Origin: an uncultured archaeon
GTDB taxonomy: Archaea; Asgardarchaeota; Heimdallarchaeia; Heimdallarchaeales; Heimdallarchaeaceae
Reading direction: 5' to 3'
Assembly: GCA_964534625.1 (NCBI GenBank)
Contig: CAZHRF010000001.1
Span: 32,001-96,000, forward strand
Length of the DNA stretch: 64,000 nucleotides
Below the pieces are notes generated by a model. That model saw only the letters and a list, made by a program, of their open reading frames with translations, did not search any database and was not told where the DNA came from. Made by a program: the position numbers and the translations under genes. Of the stretch, positions 116 to 10,946 are shown one piece after another. How positions within the stretch are numbered: the stretch's first letter is position 1; each line of letters opens with the position of its first letter.

Positions 116-2374
116 GTGTCTGGTAGAACTGAAATGTCTGGTATATTCGGTAACTTTTGGGAAAAAGTCGTTGATCATTTTGAAGACTATGAAATTGATA
201 AAGAATTTTTATTACACAAACTTGCTCTAATTTGTATACTAACTGCAGGTATCATTATTCGACTTTTTTCTTTAATCAAGGGTTATGATATTATTATTAA
301 AGCATTTGATCCCTATGTTCAATTTATAAGTGCCAACTATATTGAACGGAATGGTTTTATAGATTTTGTTCATTGGGTAAAAAATGATTCTTGGTATCCT
401 TTTGGGTTCCATATAGGTAGGGAATTGTATTGGGGCGTACCTATTAGTGCTATTGTTCTCCATTGGTTTCTTAATCTTCTTACTTTTAATGTAACAATGC
501 AACAAGTTGCATATTTTATTCCCGTTATTTATGGTGGATTAACAATTATTGCCTCTTATTATTTGGGAAAAGAAACGATCAGTTCGAGAGCTGGACTGTT
601 GACTGCACTATTTATGTCTATACTTCCCTCTTATGCCTCCCGTAGTGTAGCTGGCTTTTTTGATAATGAATATATTGGAATACTTTTTGTTGTATTGTCT
701 TTATACTTCTTTTTGCGTGCCCTAAAAAGAGATGATACCTTATCAGCATTTTTAGCTGGCATATGCTTAGCTGTGCTTATGGGCAGTTGGGGTGCATATA
801 GATATGTGCTTGATTTACTGCCTCTTTGTGTGTTGTTCTTACTTTTATCGAGAAAAGTGACTTATAATCTAATAAAAACTTATACTATTACTAATTTTGT
901 TGCTATAAGTTTGGGATTTATTGTTAAAAGAGTTATTATGAATAAATTCTTTGGTATAGAAGTAATGATACCCATTTTAATGATAGCTTTGTTAATCTTT
1001 GTTGGGATAATACAAAATATATCAAGAAGTTTGCCTGAAAAAACATTCAAACAAGTACTTCTGATAGGGGCAATAAGTTCAATTTTATTACTTAGTATCA
1101 TTGTGGGTGTGTTACTTTCTGTTGGTATATTTGATAACATAGCTGCCAAATTCTGGGCTGTGATTATTCCACGGGGTAGGGTAGATATACCTATTATTAA
1201 TTCAGTGAGTGAGCACCAACCTATGCCTTGGGGTTCACTATTCAGAAACTTCCACATACTAACATTTTTCATGCCGTTAGGGATATATTATTGTTTAAAA
1301 AAGCCAACTGATGTTAATATATTTATTCTAGTTTTTGGTGTTTCTGCTATCTATTTCACTGGATCTATGATACGGTTGGTCTTACTTTTAGCACCCGCTG
1401 CATCATTATTAAGTGCATTAGCTATAGATAGGATACTATACCCTTATTCGTTGAGTGCTCATGGAAAAATAGCTTTAACTCGAAGGAAAGTACGTATTTC
1501 CAAATCAATAGGGCGGGATGAAGCAATGATTGCCTATATTGTGATATCCTTACTCTTGTTGACTTTTGTCTTCCACTGTGTAAAAATCTCTGAAGGTTAT
1601 GCTGCACCGGAGATGGCACCGCCGTCACCATATGGGAATTCTGTACCTATGACTGATTGGCAAGATGCATTAGCTTGGTTAAGAGAAAATGCTCAAGGAC
1701 CTGGTGTTATTCCTAATAGCCCTTCTGTTGTTTTGAGTTGGTGGGATTATGGTTATTGGATAACCAATTATGGTAATGCTACTACTCTAGTAGATAATGC
1801 TACGACAAACAAAACGCAGATTGGTACTGTGGGTACTATGCTTATGTGGAACCTCACCGAATCTATACGGTTAATGTATAGATATAATGTCAAATACGTG
1901 TTGGTCAATAGTCAAGCTGGTGTTACTTGGTTGGGTTCTGATCTAGGAAAATCTGCTTGGTGTATCCGTATTGCAGAAGCCGATGTCCCTCATTATGGGA
2001 TTAAAGAATCTGATTACATTGTAGAAGAAAGTGATGGGAGGCGCATTTATGCGAAACCTTTCTATGAATCAGTTCTATATAGATTATCGGCATATGACAA
2101 AGACACTGGTTTTGCATTTGACGGGCAGTATGGGCCCACAGGCCAAAATGCTCCATCTATATTTGCAAAAGCATCAGATTATCCTGTTAAAGATTTAAAA
2201 GGGCCTGATGGTCATATATACTTTACTGAGGTTTATAGAAGTTACGGATTGGGAACTGACTCCGCAGGTACAGGAAGAGCCTTTCCGGGTGTGCGTATTT
2301 ATGAAGTTATTTATCCTCCAAATATAGCCCAATTAGCAGCTGAACTTGATATGTTATATCCTAAAAATGGATAA
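116..2374 (+). CDS. stt3: Oligosaccharyltransferase catalytic subunit STT3/AglB, eukaryote-like
   Basis: Multi-TM N-terminal region with FDPY, SWYPFG, SRSVAGFFDNE and SVSEHQP; C-terminal WWDYG and TLVDNAT motifs. Confidence 0.97.
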   Translation: MSGRTEMSGIFGNFWEKVVDHFEDYEIDKEFLLHKLALICILTAGIIIRLFSLIKGYDIIIKAFDPYVQFISANYIERNGFIDFVHWVKNDSWYPFGFHIGRELYWGVPISAIVLHWFLNLLTFNVTMQQVAYFIPVIYGGLTIIASYYLGKETISSRAGLLTALFMSILPSYASRSVAGFFDNEYIGILFVVLSLYFFLRALKRDDTLSAFLAGICLAVLMGSWGAYRYVLDLLPLCVLFLLLSRKVTYNLIKTYTITNFVAISLGFIVKRVIMNKFFGIEVMIPILMIALLIFVGIIQNISRSLPEKTFKQVLLIGAISSILLLSIIVGVLLSVGIFDNIAAKFWAVIIPRGRVDIPIINSVSEHQPMPWGSLFRNFHILTFFMPLGIYYCLKKPTDVNIFILVFGVSAIYFTGSMIRLVLLLAPAASLLSALAIDRILYPYSLSAHGKIALTRRKVRISKSIGRDEAMIAYIVISLLLLTFVFHCVKISEGYAAPEMAPPSPYGNSVPMTDWQDALAWLRENAQGPGVIPNSPSVVLSWWDYGYWITNYGNATTLVDNATTNKTQIGTVGTMLMWNLTESIRLMYRYNVKYVLVNSQAGVTWLGSDLGKSAWCIRIAEADVPHYGIKESDYIVEESDGRRIYAKPFYESVLYRLSAYDKDTGFAFDGQYGPTGQNAPSIFAKASDYPVKDLKGPDGHIYFTEVYRSYGLGTDSAGTGRAFPGVRIYEVIYPPNIAQLAAELDMLYPKNG

Positions 2375-2669: not shown

Positions 2670-3440
2670 TTGAATAATATGACTAATTTTATCCATAAAA
2701 TCATAAATCTATTTAAAACAGAGGAAACAAAATTTAAAACAGAAATGACAGAGAGACTAGAAAAAGAAAAACATATTAATTTAAAGACCGTCAATACAAA
2801 ACTGCCCATAGATAACCGTATTTGTTTATTTCAAGAAATTGTGAAAAAAAGAAGAATTAACGGTGTTTATCTTTCGAAACACTATCATTTCTTTTTAATG
2901 TCTGAAATGGATATTTCAAATATAAAAACAAAATTAAAAAGAGAAGGAAGAATAGAAATAAAAGATTTTTTCCAAAAGTGGAATGTAGACAAGAAAGTAA
3001 TCGCTAGTTTACTAAACCAATTTGAGCGGGGAATTATGGGTAAGAGAGAATATTACGCTATCTCTCACCTAGAGAATAGTTATTATTCAAAACTTAGGAA
3101 CGTTGATGAATATGAACTTGAAAAACTAGAGGACGAAAACAAAGATTTGTCTATGGAACAAATTCATAGCATCATAAATAACCTTATTGAGACAAAAAGA
3201 TTAAAGGGCACTATACAAAGCAATTCAAAATATCTTAGTGGTTCTAAATTCAGAGAGATTATGACCGAATATCTAGAAAAATTAGCAGAAAAATTTATTG
3301 AAATTTCTTTTAGTAAAATTAGCAGAGAACTAGAAATAAAAAAATCAGAAATTGAAACATTTCTGATTGAATATGTAAAAAAGAATCCCAGCAAAATTAC
3401 TATATATCCCTTAGACCAAAAGATTATATTCAAAATATAA
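2670..3440 (+). CDS. Hypothetical protein with probable tandem winged-helix (PCI/UFL1-like) repeats; start may be ATG 2679
   Basis: 256-aa ORF; WH-like segments GRIEIKDFFQKWNV, LIETKRLKGTIQSNSKYLS and EISFSKISRELEI. Confidence 0.55.
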   Translation: MNNMTNFIHKIINLFKTEETKFKTEMTERLEKEKHINLKTVNTKLPIDNRICLFQEIVKKRRINGVYLSKHYHFFLMSEMDISNIKTKLKREGRIEIKDFFQKWNVDKKVIASLLNQFERGIMGKREYYAISHLENSYYSKLRNVDEYELEKLEDENKDLSMEQIHSIINNLIETKRLKGTIQSNSKYLSGSKFREIMTEYLEKLAEKFIEISFSKISRELEIKKSEIETFLIEYVKKNPSKITIYPLDQKIIFKI

Positions 3441-3584: not shown

Positions 3585-4502
3585 ATGGAAAACAAAAAAA
3601 GAATTTCTTCAGGCATCACAGGTTTGGATGCCCTAATGTATGGAGGGCTAGTAAAAAATACAGTTAACTCTATTGTGGGAGGCAGTGGAACAGGGAAAAC
3701 AACATTTTGTTTATCATATATGCTTCAAGGATTACGCGAGGATGATCATATTCTATATCTGTCATTTGAAGAAACACCATCTAAATTGCTTGTTGAAGCA
3801 AAATCATTAGGAATAAACTTGGACAAATATGTATCAGATATAACTAATGTAATACACTTAGTGGAAAGCGAGAAAATTGTTGAATTCATTGTTGATATTT
3901 TACCTAGTTTAACAAAAAAGTTGAAAGACCAATATATCAAACATACAAGGATTATAATAGATCCATTAACACCCGTTTTATGGGAATTTCCTTCAGAAAA
4001 AGATCAGAGAAAAGTATTAACAAAAGCATACCGGTATTTGAGTTCTTTAGGTACAGTCTTACAAACTGTTGAAGAAGCCAACCCTTTCGGACAAGACAAC
4101 ATAGGAACAAGTGAAACTAGGGTCCCCATTTACCTATCAGATAGCGTAATCCAAATTCAGAACTTAGGCTTTGGAGGTAAATATAGTAGAACATGCAAAG
4201 TCATAAAATCAAGACAAACTGCTCATTACGAAGGTATTTACTCAATGAATTTTGCGTATGGATCCGGGATATCGATTGATGTAGAAACTAGAGATAATCA
4301 CATCTCAAATGAAATAAATACGGAATATGAACGGATTTTGACAGTTCTTCAAACTTGGTCCAGAGCTAAGGATCCAAAAAAGAAACTAGTGTCTCAAATT
4401 GCAAATAATCTTTTAGATAAATCAAAGAGAACGGTTACTAATAAGGAAGTCGAGTTAGTCAAAACCTTAACGGATCCAAAAATACTGCAAGAGGTAAAAT
4501 AA
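3585..4502 (+). CDS. KaiC/RAD55-family RecA-fold ATPase (single domain with C-terminal extension)
   Basis: RISSGITGLD, Walker A GGSGTGKT, SFEE, Walker B IIIDP, VIKSRQTAH arginine-finger motif. Confidence 0.92.
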   Translation: MENKKRISSGITGLDALMYGGLVKNTVNSIVGGSGTGKTTFCLSYMLQGLREDDHILYLSFEETPSKLLVEAKSLGINLDKYVSDITNVIHLVESEKIVEFIVDILPSLTKKLKDQYIKHTRIIIDPLTPVLWEFPSEKDQRKVLTKAYRYLSSLGTVLQTVEEANPFGQDNIGTSETRVPIYLSDSVIQIQNLGFGGKYSRTCKVIKSRQTAHYEGIYSMNFAYGSGISIDVETRDNHISNEINTEYERILTVLQTWSRAKDPKKKLVSQIANNLLDKSKRTVTNKEVELVKTLTDPKILQEVK

Positions 4503-4864
4503 TGGATTGCGTTTGTACCATAAAATCTGATTTAATGGATATTGTCAATTTAGAAGATGTCAATGCAGCATTATTATTTAGAATAGATGGCAATGTGATT
4601 AGATCCTGTTTTAAATCAGAGTATGAACAAACACTAGTCCATATTCTTCAATGGTGTAAAGCGAATGTAAAAAAAGTTTCTGGAGAAATGAAAGACAATA
4701 ATCTTGAGAAAGTGACCTATGAGCTAAGTAATGCTTGTATAATTTTTAATCTGGTTAATGATGTCTGTTTACTCACGACAATTGCAAAATCAGATGTTAA
4801 TGATACATTATTATCTATTGAATCAAAAAGGAAATCAATAGACATTGCAAAAAAGATGGGGTGA
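4502..4864 (+). CDS. Roadblock/LC7 (MglB/LAMTOR2-like) domain protein
   Basis: 120 aa; DVNAALLFRIDGNVI beta-hairpin, long helix and LEKVTYE...CLLTTIA strands typical of roadblock; TAATG overlap with the ATPase. Confidence 0.8.
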   Translation: MDCVCTIKSDLMDIVNLEDVNAALLFRIDGNVIRSCFKSEYEQTLVHILQWCKANVKKVSGEMKDNNLEKVTYELSNACIIFNLVNDVCLLTTIAKSDVNDTLLSIESKRKSIDIAKKMG

Positions 4865-6180
4865 TTATCATTCAGATAAGTTCAAATACATTTTCTCATC
4901 GAAGCATGGATAAAATAATAGCAGATATTAAAAAAGAAATAATTGGAGATATAAATGGAAAACCCGATTTTTTATTACTAGCTTTCACAACAGGATATAA
5001 AGTCCAAGAATATAAGAAAGCACTATCAATAATAAAAAATGAGAGTGGGGCTAAAAATATCATTGGAGGGACTTTTCCAGGTGTTACAACATCAAACAGT
5101 AATCCAACGACCCAAGGTGCCTCTATCATGGCGATAAAATCAAATGATATTCACTTTGATGATCTTATTTCTTATTCGAATGTTAGAGTCAAACAGAAAC
5201 ATATTATTGGAGAATTTAATGAATTATACAGAAATAACAACAGAAAATCAAAGGTTGGATTTGCAATTTCAGCTGGACCAACATTAGAAAAAAAGGCTAT
5301 GAAACAAATGAAAGTATTAGATACTTTCTTTGCACAAAAGTTTAAAAGGATATTTAATGCTTTGGGAAAAGTTATTGAAAAAAGCATGGGAAGAAAAGGT
5401 TTTGGAACAAATGGATATATTGATACTATAATATATGAACTGGCAAAAAACAATTTTAACCACTTAATTGGGGGAGCAACAGTAGATTTAAACTTAGATT
5501 CTATTAACTATCAATTTTTCAATCAAGAACTTATGAAAAATGCCTTTGTTGGGACTATTATCTCATCAGATAAATACAGATTTGGGCAAAACTGGACATT
5601 TGACATGTCAAAAAGAACAAATACTTACAGAATCAATGATTATTTAAAATCGGGTTATTTACAAAAAATTAATGATAAAAAAGCCAGTCAAGCATATCTT
5701 GATTTAATTGGAATGGAGAGGGATTTTTATAATGATGTTTTTGAGAGCTATTCTTATACAAATCTATTATATCTGTCTGCTTTTAAGGAAAAAAAGGGTA
5801 ATTATTTACCATTTTTAACAATAAATCATCCTTCTTTAGACGGGATAATTTCTTCAATTACAAAAAATCAATTTAAGAAAAATAATTTTGATGCTAAATT
5901 ATTTACACAATCAGGTAAAGGCATCAAAAAATCTGCTGCAAACTGTGCTTCAAGAGCAAAAGCTGGGCTCAAAACCCTAAAATTAGGTCTATTCATAAAT
6001 TGTTCTAACAGATTACTAATAGCGGGAGATAAAATTTATGAAGAAAATAAAGCGATCAAAGACGTTCTGGGTACCGATGTACCATTTATGACTTTATACA
6101 CAGGTGGAGAATTCGCCATAATAAATGGAAAACCAATTAACTCAACTGTTTCTGTACATGGTTTAATCATTGGTAAATAA
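4861..6180 (+). CDS. FIST N/C sensory domain protein
   Basis: KPDFLLLAFT, IIGGT, LIGGA, C-terminal LFINCSNR...E...FMTLYTGGEF FIST_C signature; GTGA overlap. Confidence 0.85.
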   Translation: MIIIQISSNTFSHRSMDKIIADIKKEIIGDINGKPDFLLLAFTTGYKVQEYKKALSIIKNESGAKNIIGGTFPGVTTSNSNPTTQGASIMAIKSNDIHFDDLISYSNVRVKQKHIIGEFNELYRNNNRKSKVGFAISAGPTLEKKAMKQMKVLDTFFAQKFKRIFNALGKVIEKSMGRKGFGTNGYIDTIIYELAKNNFNHLIGGATVDLNLDSINYQFFNQELMKNAFVGTIISSDKYRFGQNWTFDMSKRTNTYRINDYLKSGYLQKINDKKASQAYLDLIGMERDFYNDVFESYSYTNLLYLSAFKEKKGNYLPFLTINHPSLDGIISSITKNQFKKNNFDAKLFTQSGKGIKKSAANCASRAKAGLKTLKLGLFINCSNRLLIAGDKIYEENKAIKDVLGTDVPFMTLYTGGEFAIINGKPINSTVSVHGLIIGK

Positions 6181-6212
6181 AATTTGTGGAGTTTTAAAAG
6201 AATAATGGAGTA

Positions 6213-6818
6213 ATGAACATGATGATGACACATATCAATTCAAATCAATATGGCAAGGCTGATGTTTTAAAGATTGCATTGCTTGGATTAGGTTCGGTAG
6301 GAAAAACTACGATAACAAAAAGATATACAGGAGATATTACGGACCTAGGAAATATCTCAATGACAAAGGGTGTAGATATTTCAATTAAAAGACTTTTTTA
6401 TAAAAATAAACCTATCGTTATCCAAATTTGGGATTTTGCGGGACAAAAACAATTTAAGTTTATGCTTGATATTTTTTTGAAAGGTGTAAAAGGAATACTT
6501 TATGTCTATGATATAACAGATATTGAAACATTGTTTGATTTGGATGAGTTCGTTCTTTTAGCAAGAAACTTTTTGAAAGATAATGGTCTTCAAAGTATAC
6601 CCGAAGTATTGGTTGGTAACAAAATTGATCTTGGTGAAAGTGAGATAAACATGAACGATATTAACTATTTTCTTGCTGAACATAATATCTCAAAACATTA
6701 CTTAACAAGTGGACTATATGCAACTAGTGTTTCAGAACCTTTCACATACATCATATCAAAAATCCAAAATAAAGAATCAGATAAAAAACTGTTAAGTGTA
6801 TTAAAATCAAGAGATTAA
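6213..6818 (+). CDS. Rab/Ras-superfamily small GTPase
   Basis: G1 GLGSVGKT, G2 TKGVD, G3 WDFAGQ, G4 NKID, deviant G5 TSG; no CaaX tail. Confidence 0.93.
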   Translation: MNMMMTHINSNQYGKADVLKIALLGLGSVGKTTITKRYTGDITDLGNISMTKGVDISIKRLFYKNKPIVIQIWDFAGQKQFKFMLDIFLKGVKGILYVYDITDIETLFDLDEFVLLARNFLKDNGLQSIPEVLVGNKIDLGESEINMNDINYFLAEHNISKHYLTSGLYATSVSEPFTYIISKIQNKESDKKLLSVLKSRD

Positions 6819-6828
6819 GGTAAACAAG

Positions 6829-7137
6829 ATGGAAGATAAATATATAAAGAAAACTTTCACCTGTGATTGTTGTGGTCAAAAATTGCTATTCAAAATTGAG
6901 AAGAATAAGTTAGAGGAAATATCTAGAAGTCAATTAATGAATTTTGTGATCATGCATGCAGATGATCACACGCTCATTCTATCATTAGATGCTAGGGGTG
7001 AAATCCGACGAAAAAAAGTGGCAACTATCGGTGAGGTAGAAAATAACAGTTTAAATCAATCTTATCAAAAAATCAAGGCAATTTCGGAAGCAAAAAATCT
7101 CACTGAAGCCTTTAACATCTGGCTAAAGAACTGCTGA
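6829..7137 (+). CDS. Small putative Zn-binding protein (CxxC...HxxxH)
   Basis: CDCCG ... HADDH ... LDARGEIRR; 10 bp downstream of the GTPase with an AAGGT RBS. Confidence 0.7.
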   Translation: MEDKYIKKTFTCDCCGQKLLFKIEKNKLEEISRSQLMNFVIMHADDHTLILSLDARGEIRRKKVATIGEVENNSLNQSYQKIKAISEAKNLTEAFNIWLKNC

Positions 7138-7166: not shown

Positions 7167-8450
7167 TTATTTTGGTGTTAAGTCTATCACTGTTCCAACT
7201 GCAACAGTCTGACCCATATCTCTAACGGCAAATCGACCTAATTGAGGAATTTCTTGGAATTTCTCAATAACCATATCCCTAGTAGGTATGAACTTAACCT
7301 TTGCAGATTCACCATTTTTTAAGAACTGTGGGTTTTTTTCCACTCCGTCTTTACCTCTCTTCTCTAACAACTCTGCAAATCTTACAGCTATTTGTGCCGT
7401 ACCCGCATGGATAACGGGAGTATAGCCTTGTGCTATTACAGAAGGATGGCGAATTACAATTACCTGTGCAGTAAAATCTTTGACTACTGTTGGTGGATTA
7501 GAAGCTGGTCCAACAACATCACCACGGCGAACATCTTTCTTTGATAAACCTTTGCAGCTAAAACCTACATTGTCACCAGGCATGGCTTCTTGTATGGTTT
7601 CGTGGTGCATCTCTATAGACATTACAGCAGCTTCTTTTCCAGTAGGTTGGAAAACCACACGATCTTTTGGTTTTAAAACTCCAGTTTCAACACGGCCGAC
7701 AGGAACAGTTCCAATACCAGTAATTGTATAAACATCTTGTATAGGTAATCTGAGTGGTTTATCAATTGGTTTTTCTGGAACTTCAAAGTCATCTAAAGCA
7801 TCTATTAATGTTGGACCATCATACCATGGTGTGTTTTCGGATTTTTCTCTAAGATTATCGCCTTTCATACCACTTACAGGAATGAATTTTACATTATCGA
7901 TTTTATAACCGAATTTCTGTAGTTCTCGTGACATCTCGCTTTTAATTTCATCATAACGTTCTTGCTTGTAGTTTGCAAGATCCATTTTATTGACTGCAAC
8001 AATTATCTGGCTTACACCTAATGTTTTTGCTAACAATGCGTGCTCTCTTGTTTGTCCCGTTGCACTAATACCAGCTTCAAACTCACCAGTACCGGCACTA
8101 ACAACAAGTATAGCCGCATCAGCTTGAGATGTACCCGTAATCATGTTTTTTACGAAATCACGATGTCCTGGAGCATCAATTATAGTGAAATAATACTTTC
8201 GAGTAGAGAATTTATAGAAAGCCAAATCGATGGTAACGCCTCTTTCTCGTTCTTCTTTAAGCTTGTCTAAAACCCAAGCAAATTTGAAGCTACCTCGACC
8301 GATCAATTCTGCTTCTTTCTCAAACTTTTGGATCTCACGATCACTAATGCTTCCACATAGATAGAGTAAATGTCCTGTCATAGTGGACTTACCATGATCT
8401 ACATGACCAATAATTACTAAATTCAAATGATCTAAGTTTTTTGAGCTCAT
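7167..8450 (-). CDS. tuf: Translation elongation factor EF-1alpha
   Basis: [46 protein letters not shown]. Confidence 0.99.
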
Positions 8451-9215: not shown

Positions 9216-9802
9216 AAAAAATCACACAGTATGCGAAATCTTTAAAATAGTTTTTAAAATGTTGAAAAATAGAGAAATACAGGTAGATATATATGATAAA
9301 AAAATTACCATGGATTTTCCCGGGCATGAGAAGACCTAATTTTAATTTACACCGGCTTACATTTCGTATTCCGACAAAAGTTCCAAATAGTGTACTATAT
9401 GTGATTATATATACAATAATATTTTATATATACGCTGGTGGAGCTTACAATATTGTTAACAGAGACACTCTAATTAGCATTGGTAGTTCTGGAAGTCAAC
9501 CTGTTTTTATACATACCTCGGTTCAAGCTCAATTTTTAATTGAAGGCTTGGTTGCAGGATTTGTTTTTGCTCTTGCTTCTTTAAGTTTGTATCTGCTGGA
9601 TTATGCAACGAAATTCGCATTTGATGTAAATACAGCACAAAAAATAGAAGTTTTAGCTGCATTACTTTTGACTATATGGTATGTTGTGATCCTTTTAATG
9701 TATAATGCAAAAGGCTGATTTTAACTCTTCCTATTTATATAACAGAGTTAAATCACATCAGTTGAATTCCACTTAAGTAGGAACAGAAAAAATCACACAG
9801 TA
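9216..9802 (+). repeat. 16-bp direct repeat AAAAAATCACACAGTA flanking the OSTC-like gene
   Basis: Identical copies at 9216-9231 and 9787-9802. Confidence 0.6.
9293..9718 (+). CDS. OSTC/DC2-like (OST3/OST6 family membrane domain) oligosaccharyltransferase accessory subunit
   Basis: 3 TM, 141 aa; P..RRPNFNL, FYIYAGGAYNIV, QPVFI...VQAQFLIEGLVAGFVFALASLSLYLLD parallels the OSTC motifs GGIIYDVI / PVAFL..RVNGQYIMEGLASSFLF. Confidence 0.82.
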   Translation: MIKKLPWIFPGMRRPNFNLHRLTFRIPTKVPNSVLYVIIYTIIFYIYAGGAYNIVNRDTLISIGSSGSQPVFIHTSVQAQFLIEGLVAGFVFALASLSLYLLDYATKFAFDVNTAQKIEVLAALLLTIWYVVILLMYNAKG

Positions 9803-10150: not shown

Positions 10151-10834
10151 TTAATATTTTGATGTAATTCTTATCCCTTCTTTTGTGATGAAATATGTAA
10201 TTTCATCATTTTCACATTTTGCCTTCCATTTATTCTTACTAGGCACTACTTCTGATAAGAATATTGTTTTATCCACATAATACTCAAATGCTGCTTTTGC
10301 TACGGGTTTATATTCATATTTTGTTTTTGTTCCGCTTATTTGGTTACTTATAACGATGGATAGATTTTTGTTTTTTCTGATTTGTTTGAGATATGCAAGT
10401 TGCATTGTTATTAGTTTTTGTTTTTTGATAAAATTTGTGTTAAGTATGCTTCTATATTGTGTTGTTAATCCGTTTATTATTATAAGTTCTATATTTGATT
10501 TTGTTAAAAAGTTTTTGAGATTCATAACAATTTGAAGTTGTTTGTGTATGCTCTCAATTGGCATTAAAATAATATTTTCAAGTATTTCACTTTCGGAGAC
10601 AATATTATTTAATCTTCTTCCACTAAAATTTGCCTCACAATCCAATACACAAACTCTATCAATTTTTTTTATATTTGAACAAATATGATACAAAAATATC
10701 CTTTTTCCAGATTTTGGTGGACCTGTTATTTGTGTTATCCCTTCTGGTATTTTTTTGTTCTTAAATATATCTAAAAACATGATTGTCATTAGTAGTTGGA
10801 TACTAAAACTTTTTTGGTGGATTTCTATGTACAT
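10151..10834 (-). CDS. RadB/Rad51-paralog RecA-fold protein (start probably ~10780-10789)
   Basis: IPEGITQITGPPKSGKR (deviant Walker A), LDCEANFSGRRL, IIING (deviant Walker B), VISNQ. Confidence 0.85.
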   Translation of the reverse strand: MYIEIHQKSFSIQLLMTIMFLDIFKNKKIPEGITQITGPPKSGKRIFLYHICSNIKKIDRVCVLDCEANFSGRRLNNIVSESEILENIILMPIESIHKQLQIVMNLKNFLTKSNIELIIINGLTTQYRSILNTNFIKKQKLITMQLAYLKQIRKNKNLSIVISNQISGTKTKYEYKPVAKAAFEYYVDKTIFLSEVVPSKNKWKAKCENDEITYFITKEGIRITSKY

Positions 10835-10847
10835 TTTTTATTTAGAA

Positions 10848-10946
10848 TGGAGCCTCGAGGGGGAGTTGAACCCCCGACCTCTACCTTTTTGGAATCCATT
10901 TCGGATCTTACCAAGGTAGCGCATCTACCTACTGAGCTACCGAGGC
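10848..10946 (-). tRNA. tRNA-Thr(GGT) with 22-nt intron at 37/38 (10887-10908)
   Basis: Cloverleaf GCCTCGG...CCA, anticodon arm CTACC-TTGGTA|A-GGTAG, canonical BHB; extra U in the 3' D-stem strand. Confidence 0.95.

What the first reader, a model, noticed from the sequence alone, without database searches (positions are those of the whole stretch)
3585..7137. Five-gene signalling operon: KaiC-like ATPase, roadblock, FIST sensor, Rab-like GTPase, Zn-binding protein
Seen: co-oriented, tightly coupled genes (TAATG and GTGA overlaps, then gaps of ~32 and 10 bp) ending convergently at tuf. Known: roadblock proteins act as GAPs or scaffolds for MglA/Rag-type GTPases (MglB, Ragulator). FIST domains are proposed small-ligand (amino acid/NO) sensors, and archaeal KaiC-like ATPases are proposed signalling hubs. 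Inference: a ligand-sensing switch in which a FIST sensor and KaiC ATPase control a Rab-like GTPase through a roadblock GAP, conceptually a prokaryotic nutrient-sensing module analogous to Ragulator-Rag. KaiC linked to FIST or roadblock genes may be known in other archaea. I do not recognise the full combination with a Rab-like GTPase as described.
Basis: partly seen in the sequence, partly recalled or inferred. Interest (0 to 1): 0.82.

Follow-up and report, generated by a model that had tools for sequence, protein, structure and literature searches.

The report
KaiC-roadblock-FIST-GTPase operon, Heimdallarchaeaceae
An archaeon close to the ancestor of eukaryotes keeps five tightly packed genes together (KaiC-type ATPase, roadblock protein, FIST protein, Rab-like GTPase, small zinc-type protein), which names likely partners for one of its many otherwise unassignable GTPases, although how they work together is untested.

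Summary
Five co-oriented genes at 3585-7137 have the stated overlaps and gaps and the stated identities.

The cluster is conserved in two gene orders:
- About 23 Heimdallarchaeaceae genomes carry KaiC-roadblock-FIST-GTPase-Cys protein.
- About 15 Hodarchaeales genomes carry GTPase-KaiC-roadblock-FIST-MFS transporter.

The core is the trio KaiC-roadblock (Pfam AF0774 type)-FIST. I also found it without a GTPase: in two other Asgard-type loci with a longin-like protein, and on unassigned metagenome contigs, two of them with a small membrane protein. The Rab-like GTPase is an add-on in Heimdallarchaeia. The 102-aa CxxC...HxxxH protein occurs only in Heimdallarchaeaceae.

The FIST fold is confirmed (model pLDDT 93; best solved match FBXO22). 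The GTPase is Rab-like, keeps intact G motifs and has no prenylation cysteines. KaiC keeps its catalytic motifs.

Roadblock acting as GAP, ligand sensing by FIST and the Ragulator-Rag analogy all remain untested. The one complex prediction gave no verdict. The closest known analogue in layout is the actinobacterial conservon (kinase-roadblock-unknown-GTPase).

I found no description in the searchable literature. This scan had already reported the same operon on other DNA (at least 30 genomes), with readings that agree with mine.

Verdict: a real, conserved signalling operon, a new variant of a known kind.

The parts
3585..4502 (+). Single-domain KaiC-like (RecA-superfamily) ATPase, 305 aa, with a roughly 70-aa C-terminal extension
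   Evidence: Pfam KaiC E 2.9e-33. Best solved matches are the KaiC CI domain (8zn5, 1.7e-34) and single-domain SSO2452. Walker A GGSGTGKT, the SFEET glutamate pair, Walker B RIIIDPLT and KSRQTAH all align to the KaiC motifs. It scores below every NCBIfam equivalog cut-off. It is the only strong hit of the cluster KaiC profile in the genome (484 bits against 73 for the next).
4502..4864 (+). Roadblock-fold protein (AF0774-type), 120 aa, start overlapping the KaiC stop (TAATG)
   Evidence: Pfam Robl_LC7 is weak. The family profile hits the solved Robl_LC7 protein 7f8m at 1.9e-8 and MglB weakly. hhalign gives 99% to a protein that the source annotates as PF27410 AF0774. The KaiC/roadblock overlap is conserved in 22 of 22 A-type loci and 13 of 13 B-type loci.
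4861..6180 (+). Stand-alone FIST_N+FIST_C protein, 439 aa, GTG start overlapping the roadblock stop (GTGA)
   Evidence: Pfam. AF2 model pLDDT 93. Foldseek top hits are FBXO22 chains (E 6e-8). Atlas TM 0.82 to archaeal FIST clusters. Single copy in the genome.
6213..6818 (+). Rab-like small GTPase, 201 aa, no C-terminal cysteines
   Evidence: Pfam Ras E 2.4e-26. Best solved matches are Rab11, Rab1, Ypt1 and Thor-Rab 7ezb. Invariant G1 GxGxVGKTT, switch-I Thr51, G3 WDxxGQ, G4 NKxD (TKxD in Hodarchaeales) and G5 Ser. It is one of about 22-38 small-GTPase paralogues in the genome.
6829..7137 (+). 102-aa protein of no known family with invariant Cys12, Cys15, His43 and His47 (putative Zn site)
   Evidence: Alignment of 14 orthologues. 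In the AF2 model (pLDDT 76) both ligand pairs sit at beta-hairpin turns. No fold match (Z <= 3.5). Found only in Heimdallarchaeaceae, 59 clusters. Always directly after the GTPase gene.
2670..3440 (+). Tandem winged-helix protein (PCI/UFL1-like), a conserved neighbour whose membership in the module is uncertain
   Evidence: Pfam PCI 1.1e-6 and E3_UFM1_ligase 1.3e-5. Adjacent to the KaiC gene in 20 of 22 related loci, but divergently oriented there (spacer 77-167 nt) and co-oriented here. Absent from the Hodarchaeales version.

Best explanation
The five genes form one operon that encodes a cytoplasmic signalling module.

Its core is an old archaeal trio: a hexamer-type KaiC-like ATPase, a roadblock-fold adaptor of the AF0774 type, and a stand-alone FIST protein. 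Heimdallarchaeia attached a dedicated Rab-like GTPase to this trio. Heimdallarchaeaceae also added a small CxxC...HxxxH protein.

Shown:
- The gene identities.
- Intact catalytic motifs in both NTPases.
- Tight, conserved gene junctions.
- Conservation of the set in two different gene orders.

Inferred:
- The FIST protein is the input element (small-ligand or partner binding).
- The KaiC-like ATPase converts that input into an ATP-dependent state (hydrolysis or autophosphorylation).
- The roadblock dimer is the platform that docks the GTPase and changes its nucleotide state. Whether it acts as GAP, GEF or scaffold is not decided.
- The GTPase, together with the small Zn-type protein, is the output.

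What the module senses and what it controls is unknown.
For: Operon anatomy.

Conservation at 40-63% protein identity with the same order and junctions in about 23 Heimdallarchaeaceae genomes.

A rearranged set, GTPase-KaiC-roadblock-FIST(-MFS), occurs in about 15 Hodarchaeales genomes and on one further contig. Linkage therefore survived a change of gene order.

The trio occurs without a GTPase in other lineages.

Phyletic pattern: FIST family found in 27/30 Heimdallarchaeaceae and 22/22 Hodarchaeales genomes searched.

Catalytic motifs are intact. The FIST fold is confirmed and roadblock homology is confirmed.

Established knowledge:
- Roadblock/longin dimers are the usual platforms for small GTPases: MglB, Ragulator, CvnB (PMC4316618, PMC10933270).
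- In two GTPase-less versions of the trio a longin-like protein sits in the cluster instead.
Against: No experiment and no usable interaction prediction supports any contact among the five proteins.

The GTPases of the two gene orders are not reciprocal best hits. A careful tree does not join them. A single origin is not rejected either (AU p 0.44).

The trio works without a GTPase in other lineages, so the GTPase may be peripheral.

Sixteen genomes of sister families in the same order lack the FIST gene with this query, so the module is dispensable.

FIST function is not established for any archaeal member.

Transcription as one unit is inferred from spacing only.
Confidence: 0.55

Rival explanations
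1. The KaiC-roadblock-FIST trio is a self-contained unit, for example a regulator of a membrane or transport process. The GTPase and the Cys protein are merely co-transcribed neighbours with a separate job.
For: The trio occurs without any GTPase in G397, L125, L123, L127 and L129. Two euryarchaeal-type versions carry a small membrane protein instead. MFS transporters follow the trio in two lineages. The two GTPase groups are not shown to be orthologous.
Against: A GTPase gene sits directly against the trio in about 38 genomes, on either side, with gaps of 1-42 nt. Roadblock folds are the classic GTPase platforms. The two MFS genes are barely related to each other (22% identity, E 1e-4), and none related to the Hodarchaeales one is found in this genome.
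Confidence: 0.2
2. The FIST protein is an enzyme or a substrate-binding subunit, not a sensor. On this reading the operon is an ATP- and GTP-dependent modification or assembly system.
For: Invariant polar residues in the family (Cys381, Arg384, Asp390, Glu417; nearly invariant Ser235/236, Asn383). Weak fold matches to PurL and to cyclic-amide hydrolases (E 6e-6 to 1e-3, TM 0.2-0.36). In other Asgard families the FIST homologue is always followed by a LuxE-like acyl-protein synthetase. The eukaryotic relative FBXO22 is a substrate receptor.
Against: The enzyme matches have low TM scores. Bacterial FIST domains are typically fused to signalling outputs such as GGDEF, cyclases and SpoIIE. No catalytic activity is known for any FIST protein (own knowledge).
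Confidence: 0.15
3. The cluster is an anti-virus defence system built on a KaiC-like NTPase.
For: One weak P-loop match of the KaiC-like protein to PADLOC mad8 (24 bits).
Against: The other four proteins have no PADLOC match. There is no nuclease or other effector domain. The context is stable, vertically inherited housekeeping genes (EF-1alpha, STT3, RIO kinase), not a variable island. It is single copy with 27/30 and 22/22 occupancy.
Confidence: 0.02

Closest known systems
Actinobacterial conservon (CvnA histidine kinase, CvnB roadblock, CvnC unknown, CvnD MglA-like GTPase)
   Same: A four-gene operon in the same logical order: autophosphorylating NTP-using enzyme, roadblock protein, protein of unclear role, small Ras-superfamily GTPase (PMC4316618). 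A solved CvnB (3leq) appears among weak roadblock matches to a related Asgard roadblock-domain protein, not to this operon's own.
   Different: The kinase here is a soluble KaiC-like RecA-fold ATPase, not a membrane histidine kinase. The third protein is FIST, not DUF742. The GTPase is Rab-like with a Ras-type DxxGQ motif, not MglA-type. There is an extra Zn-type protein. The host is archaeal.
MglA/MglB (Myxococcus, Thermus)
   Same: A small GTPase encoded next to a roadblock-fold protein. The roadblock profile matches MglB weakly.
   Different: MglA-specific features are absent. The GTPase is nearest to Rab1/Rab11. There are two extra conserved partners (KaiC, FIST). GAP activity is untested.
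Archaeal KaiC-like ATPase modules (ArlH/FlaH, CirA-D; 'signalling hubs' of Makarova, Galperin and Koonin 2017, cited in PMC6393860) and the KaiC-AF0774-FIST gene trio
   Same: A single-domain KaiC-like ATPase with intact motifs, paired with an AF0774-type protein and a FIST protein, as on other archaeal contigs.
   Different: A Rab-like GTPase and a CCHH protein have been added and the small membrane protein is missing. The protein scores far below the ArlH and KaiC_arch equivalog cut-offs. I could not read the 2017 paper itself.
Asgard LAMTOR1-like roadblock / Rab-like GTPase / DENN operon (Liu et al., preprint 10.1101/2020.10.19.343400)
   Same: A conserved Asgard operon that joins a roadblock-superfamily protein and a Rab-like GTPase.
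   Different: The third gene there is DENN. Here the large protein has a FIST fold, not DENN, and a KaiC-like ATPase is present. The distribution is restricted to Heimdallarchaeaceae and Hodarchaeales.
Ragulator-Rag (eukaryotic lysosomal amino-acid sensing)
   Same: Roadblock-fold proteins together with a small GTPase. A transporter is linked in the Hodarchaeales version.
   Different: The GTPase is not Rag-type: it has no C-terminal roadblock domain and there is no heterodimer pair. No LAMTOR1-like anchor is present. The resemblance is conceptual only.

Membership tests
KaiC family (PF06745), single-domain archaeal type | RecA-like fold with Walker A, catalytic glutamate pair, Walker B and the K-x-R-G-x-x-H region | tested here: met
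   GGSGTGKT, SFEET, RIIIDPLT and KSRQTAH align to KaiC CI. Pfam E 2.9e-33.
Circadian KaiC (KaiABC clock) | Duplicated CI+CII domains of about 500 aa reaching the equivalog score | tested here: not met
   One domain in 305 aa. 97 bits against a cut-off of 408 for PRK09302.
KaiC family | ATPase and autophosphorylation activity | not testable with these tools
   Needs biochemistry.
Roadblock/LC7 superfamily | Sequence-profile similarity to solved roadblock proteins over the whole domain | tested here: met
   Profile A3 against 7f8m: E 1.9e-8, residues 2-119 of 120. Pfam alone is below its cut-off.
Roadblock/LC7 superfamily | Alpha-beta-alpha sandwich fold and dimer | not tested
MglA/MglB system | MglA-type GTPase, and GAP action of the roadblock dimer | tested here: inconclusive
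   The GTPase is nearest to Rab proteins and has Ras-type WDxxGQ. Whether the roadblock protein acts as a GAP cannot be tested with these tools.
FIST (PF08495 + PF10442) | FIST_N and FIST_C domains and the fold shared with FBXO22 | tested here: met
   FIST_N 25.0 bits (cut-off 23.2) and FIST_C 27.5 bits (cut-off 28.5). Model pLDDT 93. FBXO22 E 6e-8. Atlas FIST clusters TM 0.82.
NosP-type heme/NO-sensing FIST proteins | Conserved heme-ligating histidine (recalled from memory) | tested here: inconclusive
   No invariant or nearly invariant His in alignments A1 and A4. I could not align to a NosP sequence.
Rab family | Ras-superfamily G1-G5 motifs, with Rab proteins as the nearest relatives | tested here: met
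   Partial RabF-like motifs (KGVDI, IQIW, YVYDIT) read from the sequence.
Rab family | C-terminal prenylation cysteines | tested here: not met
   The C terminus has no Cys in any of 16 orthologues. The same is reported for Asgard Rab-likes (PMC10933270).
Rag GTPases / Ragulator | GTPase with a C-terminal roadblock domain, encoded as a dimerising pair | tested here: not met
   201 aa, GTPase domain only. Gtr1_RagA 23.8 bits against Ras 92.7 bits. One GTPase gene in the cluster.
Conservon (CvnABCD) | Membrane histidine kinase CvnA and DUF742 protein CvnC | tested here: not met
   No HK or DUF742 match among the five proteins. It is an analogue in layout only.
DENN-roadblock-Rab operon of Asgard archaea | DENN-domain protein | tested here: not met
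   The large protein has a FIST fold.
Zinc-ribbon-like small proteins | Four conserved metal ligands on two hairpin turns | tested here: inconclusive
   C12, C15, H43 and H47 are invariant and sit at two hairpin turns of the model. No fold match. Metal binding is untested.

The most novel reading that the evidence does not exclude
The module is an archaeal small-molecule (nutrient) sensing switch. The FIST protein binds a metabolite. The KaiC-like ATPase and the roadblock dimer then set the nucleotide state of a dedicated Rab-like GTPase, which controls a membrane or transport process. That would make it a prokaryotic forerunner, in logic, of roadblock-platform GTPase signalling such as Ragulator-Rag, sitting in the two Asgard lineages nearest to eukaryotes.
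Probability: 0.1. Interest if true: 0.9.

Novelty: new variant of a known kind. Interest (0 to 1): 0.6.

Why it matters
Asgard archaea carry dozens of Ras-superfamily GTPases and dozens of roadblock/longin proteins. Workers in the field state that these are generally not encoded together, so regulators cannot be matched to GTPases from genome layout (PMC10933270).

This operon is a conserved exception. It occurs in Heimdallarchaeaceae and Hodarchaeales, the Asgard groups usually placed nearest to eukaryotes. It names four concrete candidate partners for one Rab-like GTPase.

That makes an otherwise open question directly testable with recombinant proteins: how an Asgard GTPase is switched, and whether a roadblock platform was already doing this before eukaryotes.

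It also gives the uncharacterised archaeal KaiC-AF0774-FIST trio a possible output.

Tried and rejected
1. Complex prediction of two roadblock copies plus the GTPase gave no verdict (score 0.00). It counts neither for nor against binding.

2. The 102-aa protein was tested as a second roadblock or longin subunit and this was rejected. The model is a five-stranded sheet plus one helix with no fold match (Z <= 3.5). The profile search of solved structures gave only chance-level hits, and the Atlas features gave only unnamed Asgard clusters.

3. The FIST protein was tested as the DENN protein of the published Asgard roadblock-Rab-DENN operon and this was rejected on fold. A sequence search of solved structures with the FIST profile found nothing.

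4. Orthology of the two GTPase groups:
- Reciprocal best hits fail.
- A quick tree put them in one set of 24-26 paralogues.
- A careful tree does not join them.
- The AU test gives p 0.07 with a nested paralogue left out and p 0.44 with it included.
The question is left open.

5. A shared MFS transporter as evidence for a transport role: the two MFS genes are barely related, and none like the Hodarchaeales one is found in this genome.

6. Defence system: no PADLOC support.

7. Literature: searches for KaiC+roadblock+GTPase, KaiC+FIST and AF0774 found no description. The Makarova et al. 2017 KaiC paper is not held, so I cannot exclude that it lists the KaiC-roadblock or KaiC-FIST link.

8. The taxonomy of contigs L123, L126, L129 and L131 could not be established.

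9. The sigma-70 promoter/terminator scan was not used because it does not apply to archaea.
Full report
**1. Observation.**
The window holds five co-oriented ORFs:
- 3585-4502
- 4502-4864
- 4861-6180
- 6213-6818
- 6829-7137

aEF-1alpha lies convergent at 7167-8450. Short GGAG and AGGT motifs precede the last two starts.

Pfam gives KaiC (E 2.9e-33), a sub-threshold Robl_LC7, borderline FIST_N and FIST_C, and Ras (E 2.4e-26). It gives nothing for the 102-aa protein.

Gene callers begin the FIST gene at Met16. The upstream 15 residues are conserved in relatives and form a confident strand in the model, so the GTG start stands.

**2. Whose genome.**
Relatives found by the FIST protein are Heimdallarchaeaceae. 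They include Candidatus Heimdallarchaeum aukensis PM71 and H. endolithica PR6. More distant relatives are Hodarchaeales. The window's genus is divergent, at only 45-50% FIST identity to the rest of the family.

**3. Conservation.**
Three architectures appear.

Architecture A occurs in about 23 Heimdallarchaeaceae genomes. It has the same five genes in the same order at 40-63% identity.
- The KaiC/roadblock overlap is present in 22 of 22 loci.
- Median gaps elsewhere are 9-24 nt.
- A tandem winged-helix gene lies upstream. It is divergent in relatives and co-oriented in this window.

Architecture B occurs in about 15 Hodarchaeales genomes. It reads GTPase-KaiC-roadblock-FIST-MFS, at 21-33% identity to the window proteins. 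It is equally tight, and sits in a different context of RIO kinase and KH protein genes. One metagenome contig has GTPase-KaiC-AF0774-FIST without the MFS gene.

Architecture C is represented by two loci:
- One other Asgard family (G397) has KaiC-roadblock-FIST-MFS with a divergent longin-like gene.
- Contig L125 (GCA_016840025.1) has KaiC-AF0774-FIST-longin-like.

Neither has a GTPase. The two longin-like proteins are homologous to each other (E 9e-19).

The FIST family was found in 27/30 Heimdallarchaeaceae and 22/22 Hodarchaeales genomes searched. It was not found in 16 genomes of three sister families of the same order, which are 63-94% complete.

**4. The core is older than the GTPase link.**
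A profile search of 1.84 billion representatives gave 1390 FIST relatives. I sampled their contexts:
- KaiC, a 195-aa membrane protein, a roadblock-like protein and FIST on L123.
- KaiC, a 200-aa homologue of that membrane protein and AF0774, lying 2 kb from FIST, on L131.
- KaiC, a small protein and FIST on L127 and L129.
- Two contexts with no KaiC.

The source annotations call the small protein PF27410 'AF0774', a Pfam family absent from the local library. The window's roadblock profile matches such proteins at 99%, 92% and 87% hhalign probability.

In other Asgard families, the FIST homologue sits in a different conserved cluster:
- a 139-aa protein;
- a 330-aa protein with an N-terminal roadblock domain;
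- a 165-aa protein;
- FIST;
- a LuxE-like acyl-protein synthetase.

So FIST-roadblock linkage is general. KaiC linkage is frequent. GTPase linkage is specific to Heimdallarchaeaceae and Hodarchaeales.

**5. The parts.**

*KaiC-like ATPase.* It has one RecA-like domain with all the KaiC CI motifs. It falls below every curated equivalog cut-off. It carries a 70-aa C-terminal extension that the Hodarchaeales form lacks.

*Roadblock.* The profile hits the solved Robl_LC7 protein 7f8m at 1.9e-8 and MglB only weakly.

*FIST.* The model has pLDDT 93. The best solved matches are FBXO22, the eukaryotic FIST protein. TM is 0.82 to archaeal FIST clusters, while bacterial relatives are fused to GGDEF, cyclase or SpoIIE outputs. 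Invariant residues include Cys381, Arg384, Asp390 and Glu417, and no histidine.

*GTPase.* Its nearest solved relatives are Rab11, Rab1, Ypt1 and the Thorarchaeota Rab. The G motifs are invariant, including the catalytic Gln, and there is no C-terminal cysteine. The genome has roughly 22-38 paralogues.

*The 102-aa protein.* Cys12, Cys15, His43 and His47 are invariant and lie at two hairpin turns. It has no fold match and occurs only in Heimdallarchaeaceae.

**6. One origin or two for the GTPase link?**
The A and B GTPases are each strongly monophyletic (99/99 and 100/99). They are not reciprocal best hits and the careful tree does not join them. Forcing them into one clade costs only 3.5 log-likelihood units (AU p 0.44).

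The question stays open. Two independent recruitments would be, if anything, stronger evidence of functional coupling.

**7. Mechanism.**

*Shown.* This is a conserved operon with two intact NTPases, a roadblock-fold protein and a FIST-fold protein.

*Inferred from family knowledge.* Roadblock/longin dimers are the standard platforms that bind small GTPases and act as GAP, GEF or scaffold (PMC10933270, PMC4316618). KaiC-like ATPases are hexameric ATP-driven switches. FIST domains are input modules in bacterial signalling proteins.

*Most likely model.* FIST is the input, KaiC is the ATP-dependent state, the roadblock dimer is the platform, and the GTPase (with the Zn-type protein) is the output. 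The longin-like gene in the GTPase-less versions fits a GTPase-related role for the trio.

The direction of regulation, the signal and the target are unknown.

**8. Comparison with known systems.**

The closest layout is the actinobacterial conservon: kinase, roadblock, unknown protein, GTPase (PMC4316618). This cluster is not a member, because it has no histidine kinase or DUF742 protein and no MglA-type GTPase.

It is not MglAB, not Ragulator-Rag, and not the published Asgard roadblock-Rab-DENN operon (preprint 10.1101/2020.10.19.343400).

Tran et al. state that Asgard GTPases generally do not sit in operons with roadblock or longin genes (PMC10933270). That makes this a useful exception.

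My literature searches found no description. I could not read the 2017 KaiC-hub paper.

**9. Earlier notes of this scan.**
The same operon was reported before on other DNA: 37 notes in at least 30 genomes. Follow-up readings there agree with mine on three points: the core trio, the added GTPase and transporter, and the untested function. I reached the AF0774 link from source annotations before reading those notes.

**10. Verdict.**
The mechanistic reading (GAP, ligand sensor, Rag-like nutrient switch) is plausible only in outline and is untested. I class it as a new variant of the small-GTPase-plus-roadblock signalling cassette, built on an archaeal KaiC-AF0774-FIST core.

Noticed in passing
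window 2670-3440 (+): A 256-aa tandem winged-helix protein with weak PCI and UFL1 (E3 UFM1 ligase) similarity. It is conserved next to the operon in 20 of 22 related loci, but divergently oriented there and co-oriented here, which suggests a local inversion in this genus. The Atlas features also point weakly to UFL1-like proteins (score 0.81, a lead only).
   Followed up: partly
L075-L088 (other Asgard families), e.g. L081:4050-8738: A different conserved five-gene cluster surrounds the FIST homologue: a 139-aa protein, a 330-aa protein with an N-terminal roadblock domain (7f8m, E 1e-4), a 165-aa protein with a weak gelsolin match, FIST, and a LuxE-like acyl-protein synthetase. It was seen in 13-14 loci.
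   Followed up: partly
L123:5068-5655 and L131:8506-9108: A 195-200-aa multi-pass membrane protein of no Pfam family lies between the KaiC and AF0774-type genes in two non-Heimdall contigs. The two copies are 34% identical (E 1e-25).
   Followed up: partly
L074:3853-4338 (-) and L125:6412-6885 (+): Homologous longin-like proteins (weak Fuz_longin_1, Sybindin and Longin matches) are attached to the GTPase-less KaiC-roadblock-FIST trio in two loci.
   Followed up: partly
G059:C19:32249-32641 (L109:225-848, -): A second small GTPase nests inside the clade of the Hodarchaeales operon GTPases (support 100/99) but lies elsewhere in that genome. Its neighbours were not examined.
   Followed up: no
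window 10851-10946 (-): Rfam tRNA match of 96 nt (45.5 bits) that ARAGORN does not call. It is probably an intron-containing archaeal tRNA.
   Followed up: partly
window 116-2374 (+), 9293-9718 (+), 10151-10834 (-): STT3/AglB oligosaccharyltransferase, a small OST3/OST6-like membrane protein and a Rad51/RadB-like protein flank the region.
   Followed up: no
L061:4688-5344 and L069 (Hodarchaeales loci): Two B-type loci have no GTPase ORF in the 660-nt space before the KaiC gene. Only short ORFs are present there, so the GTPase gene may have been lost or replaced in some Hodarchaeales.
   Followed up: partly
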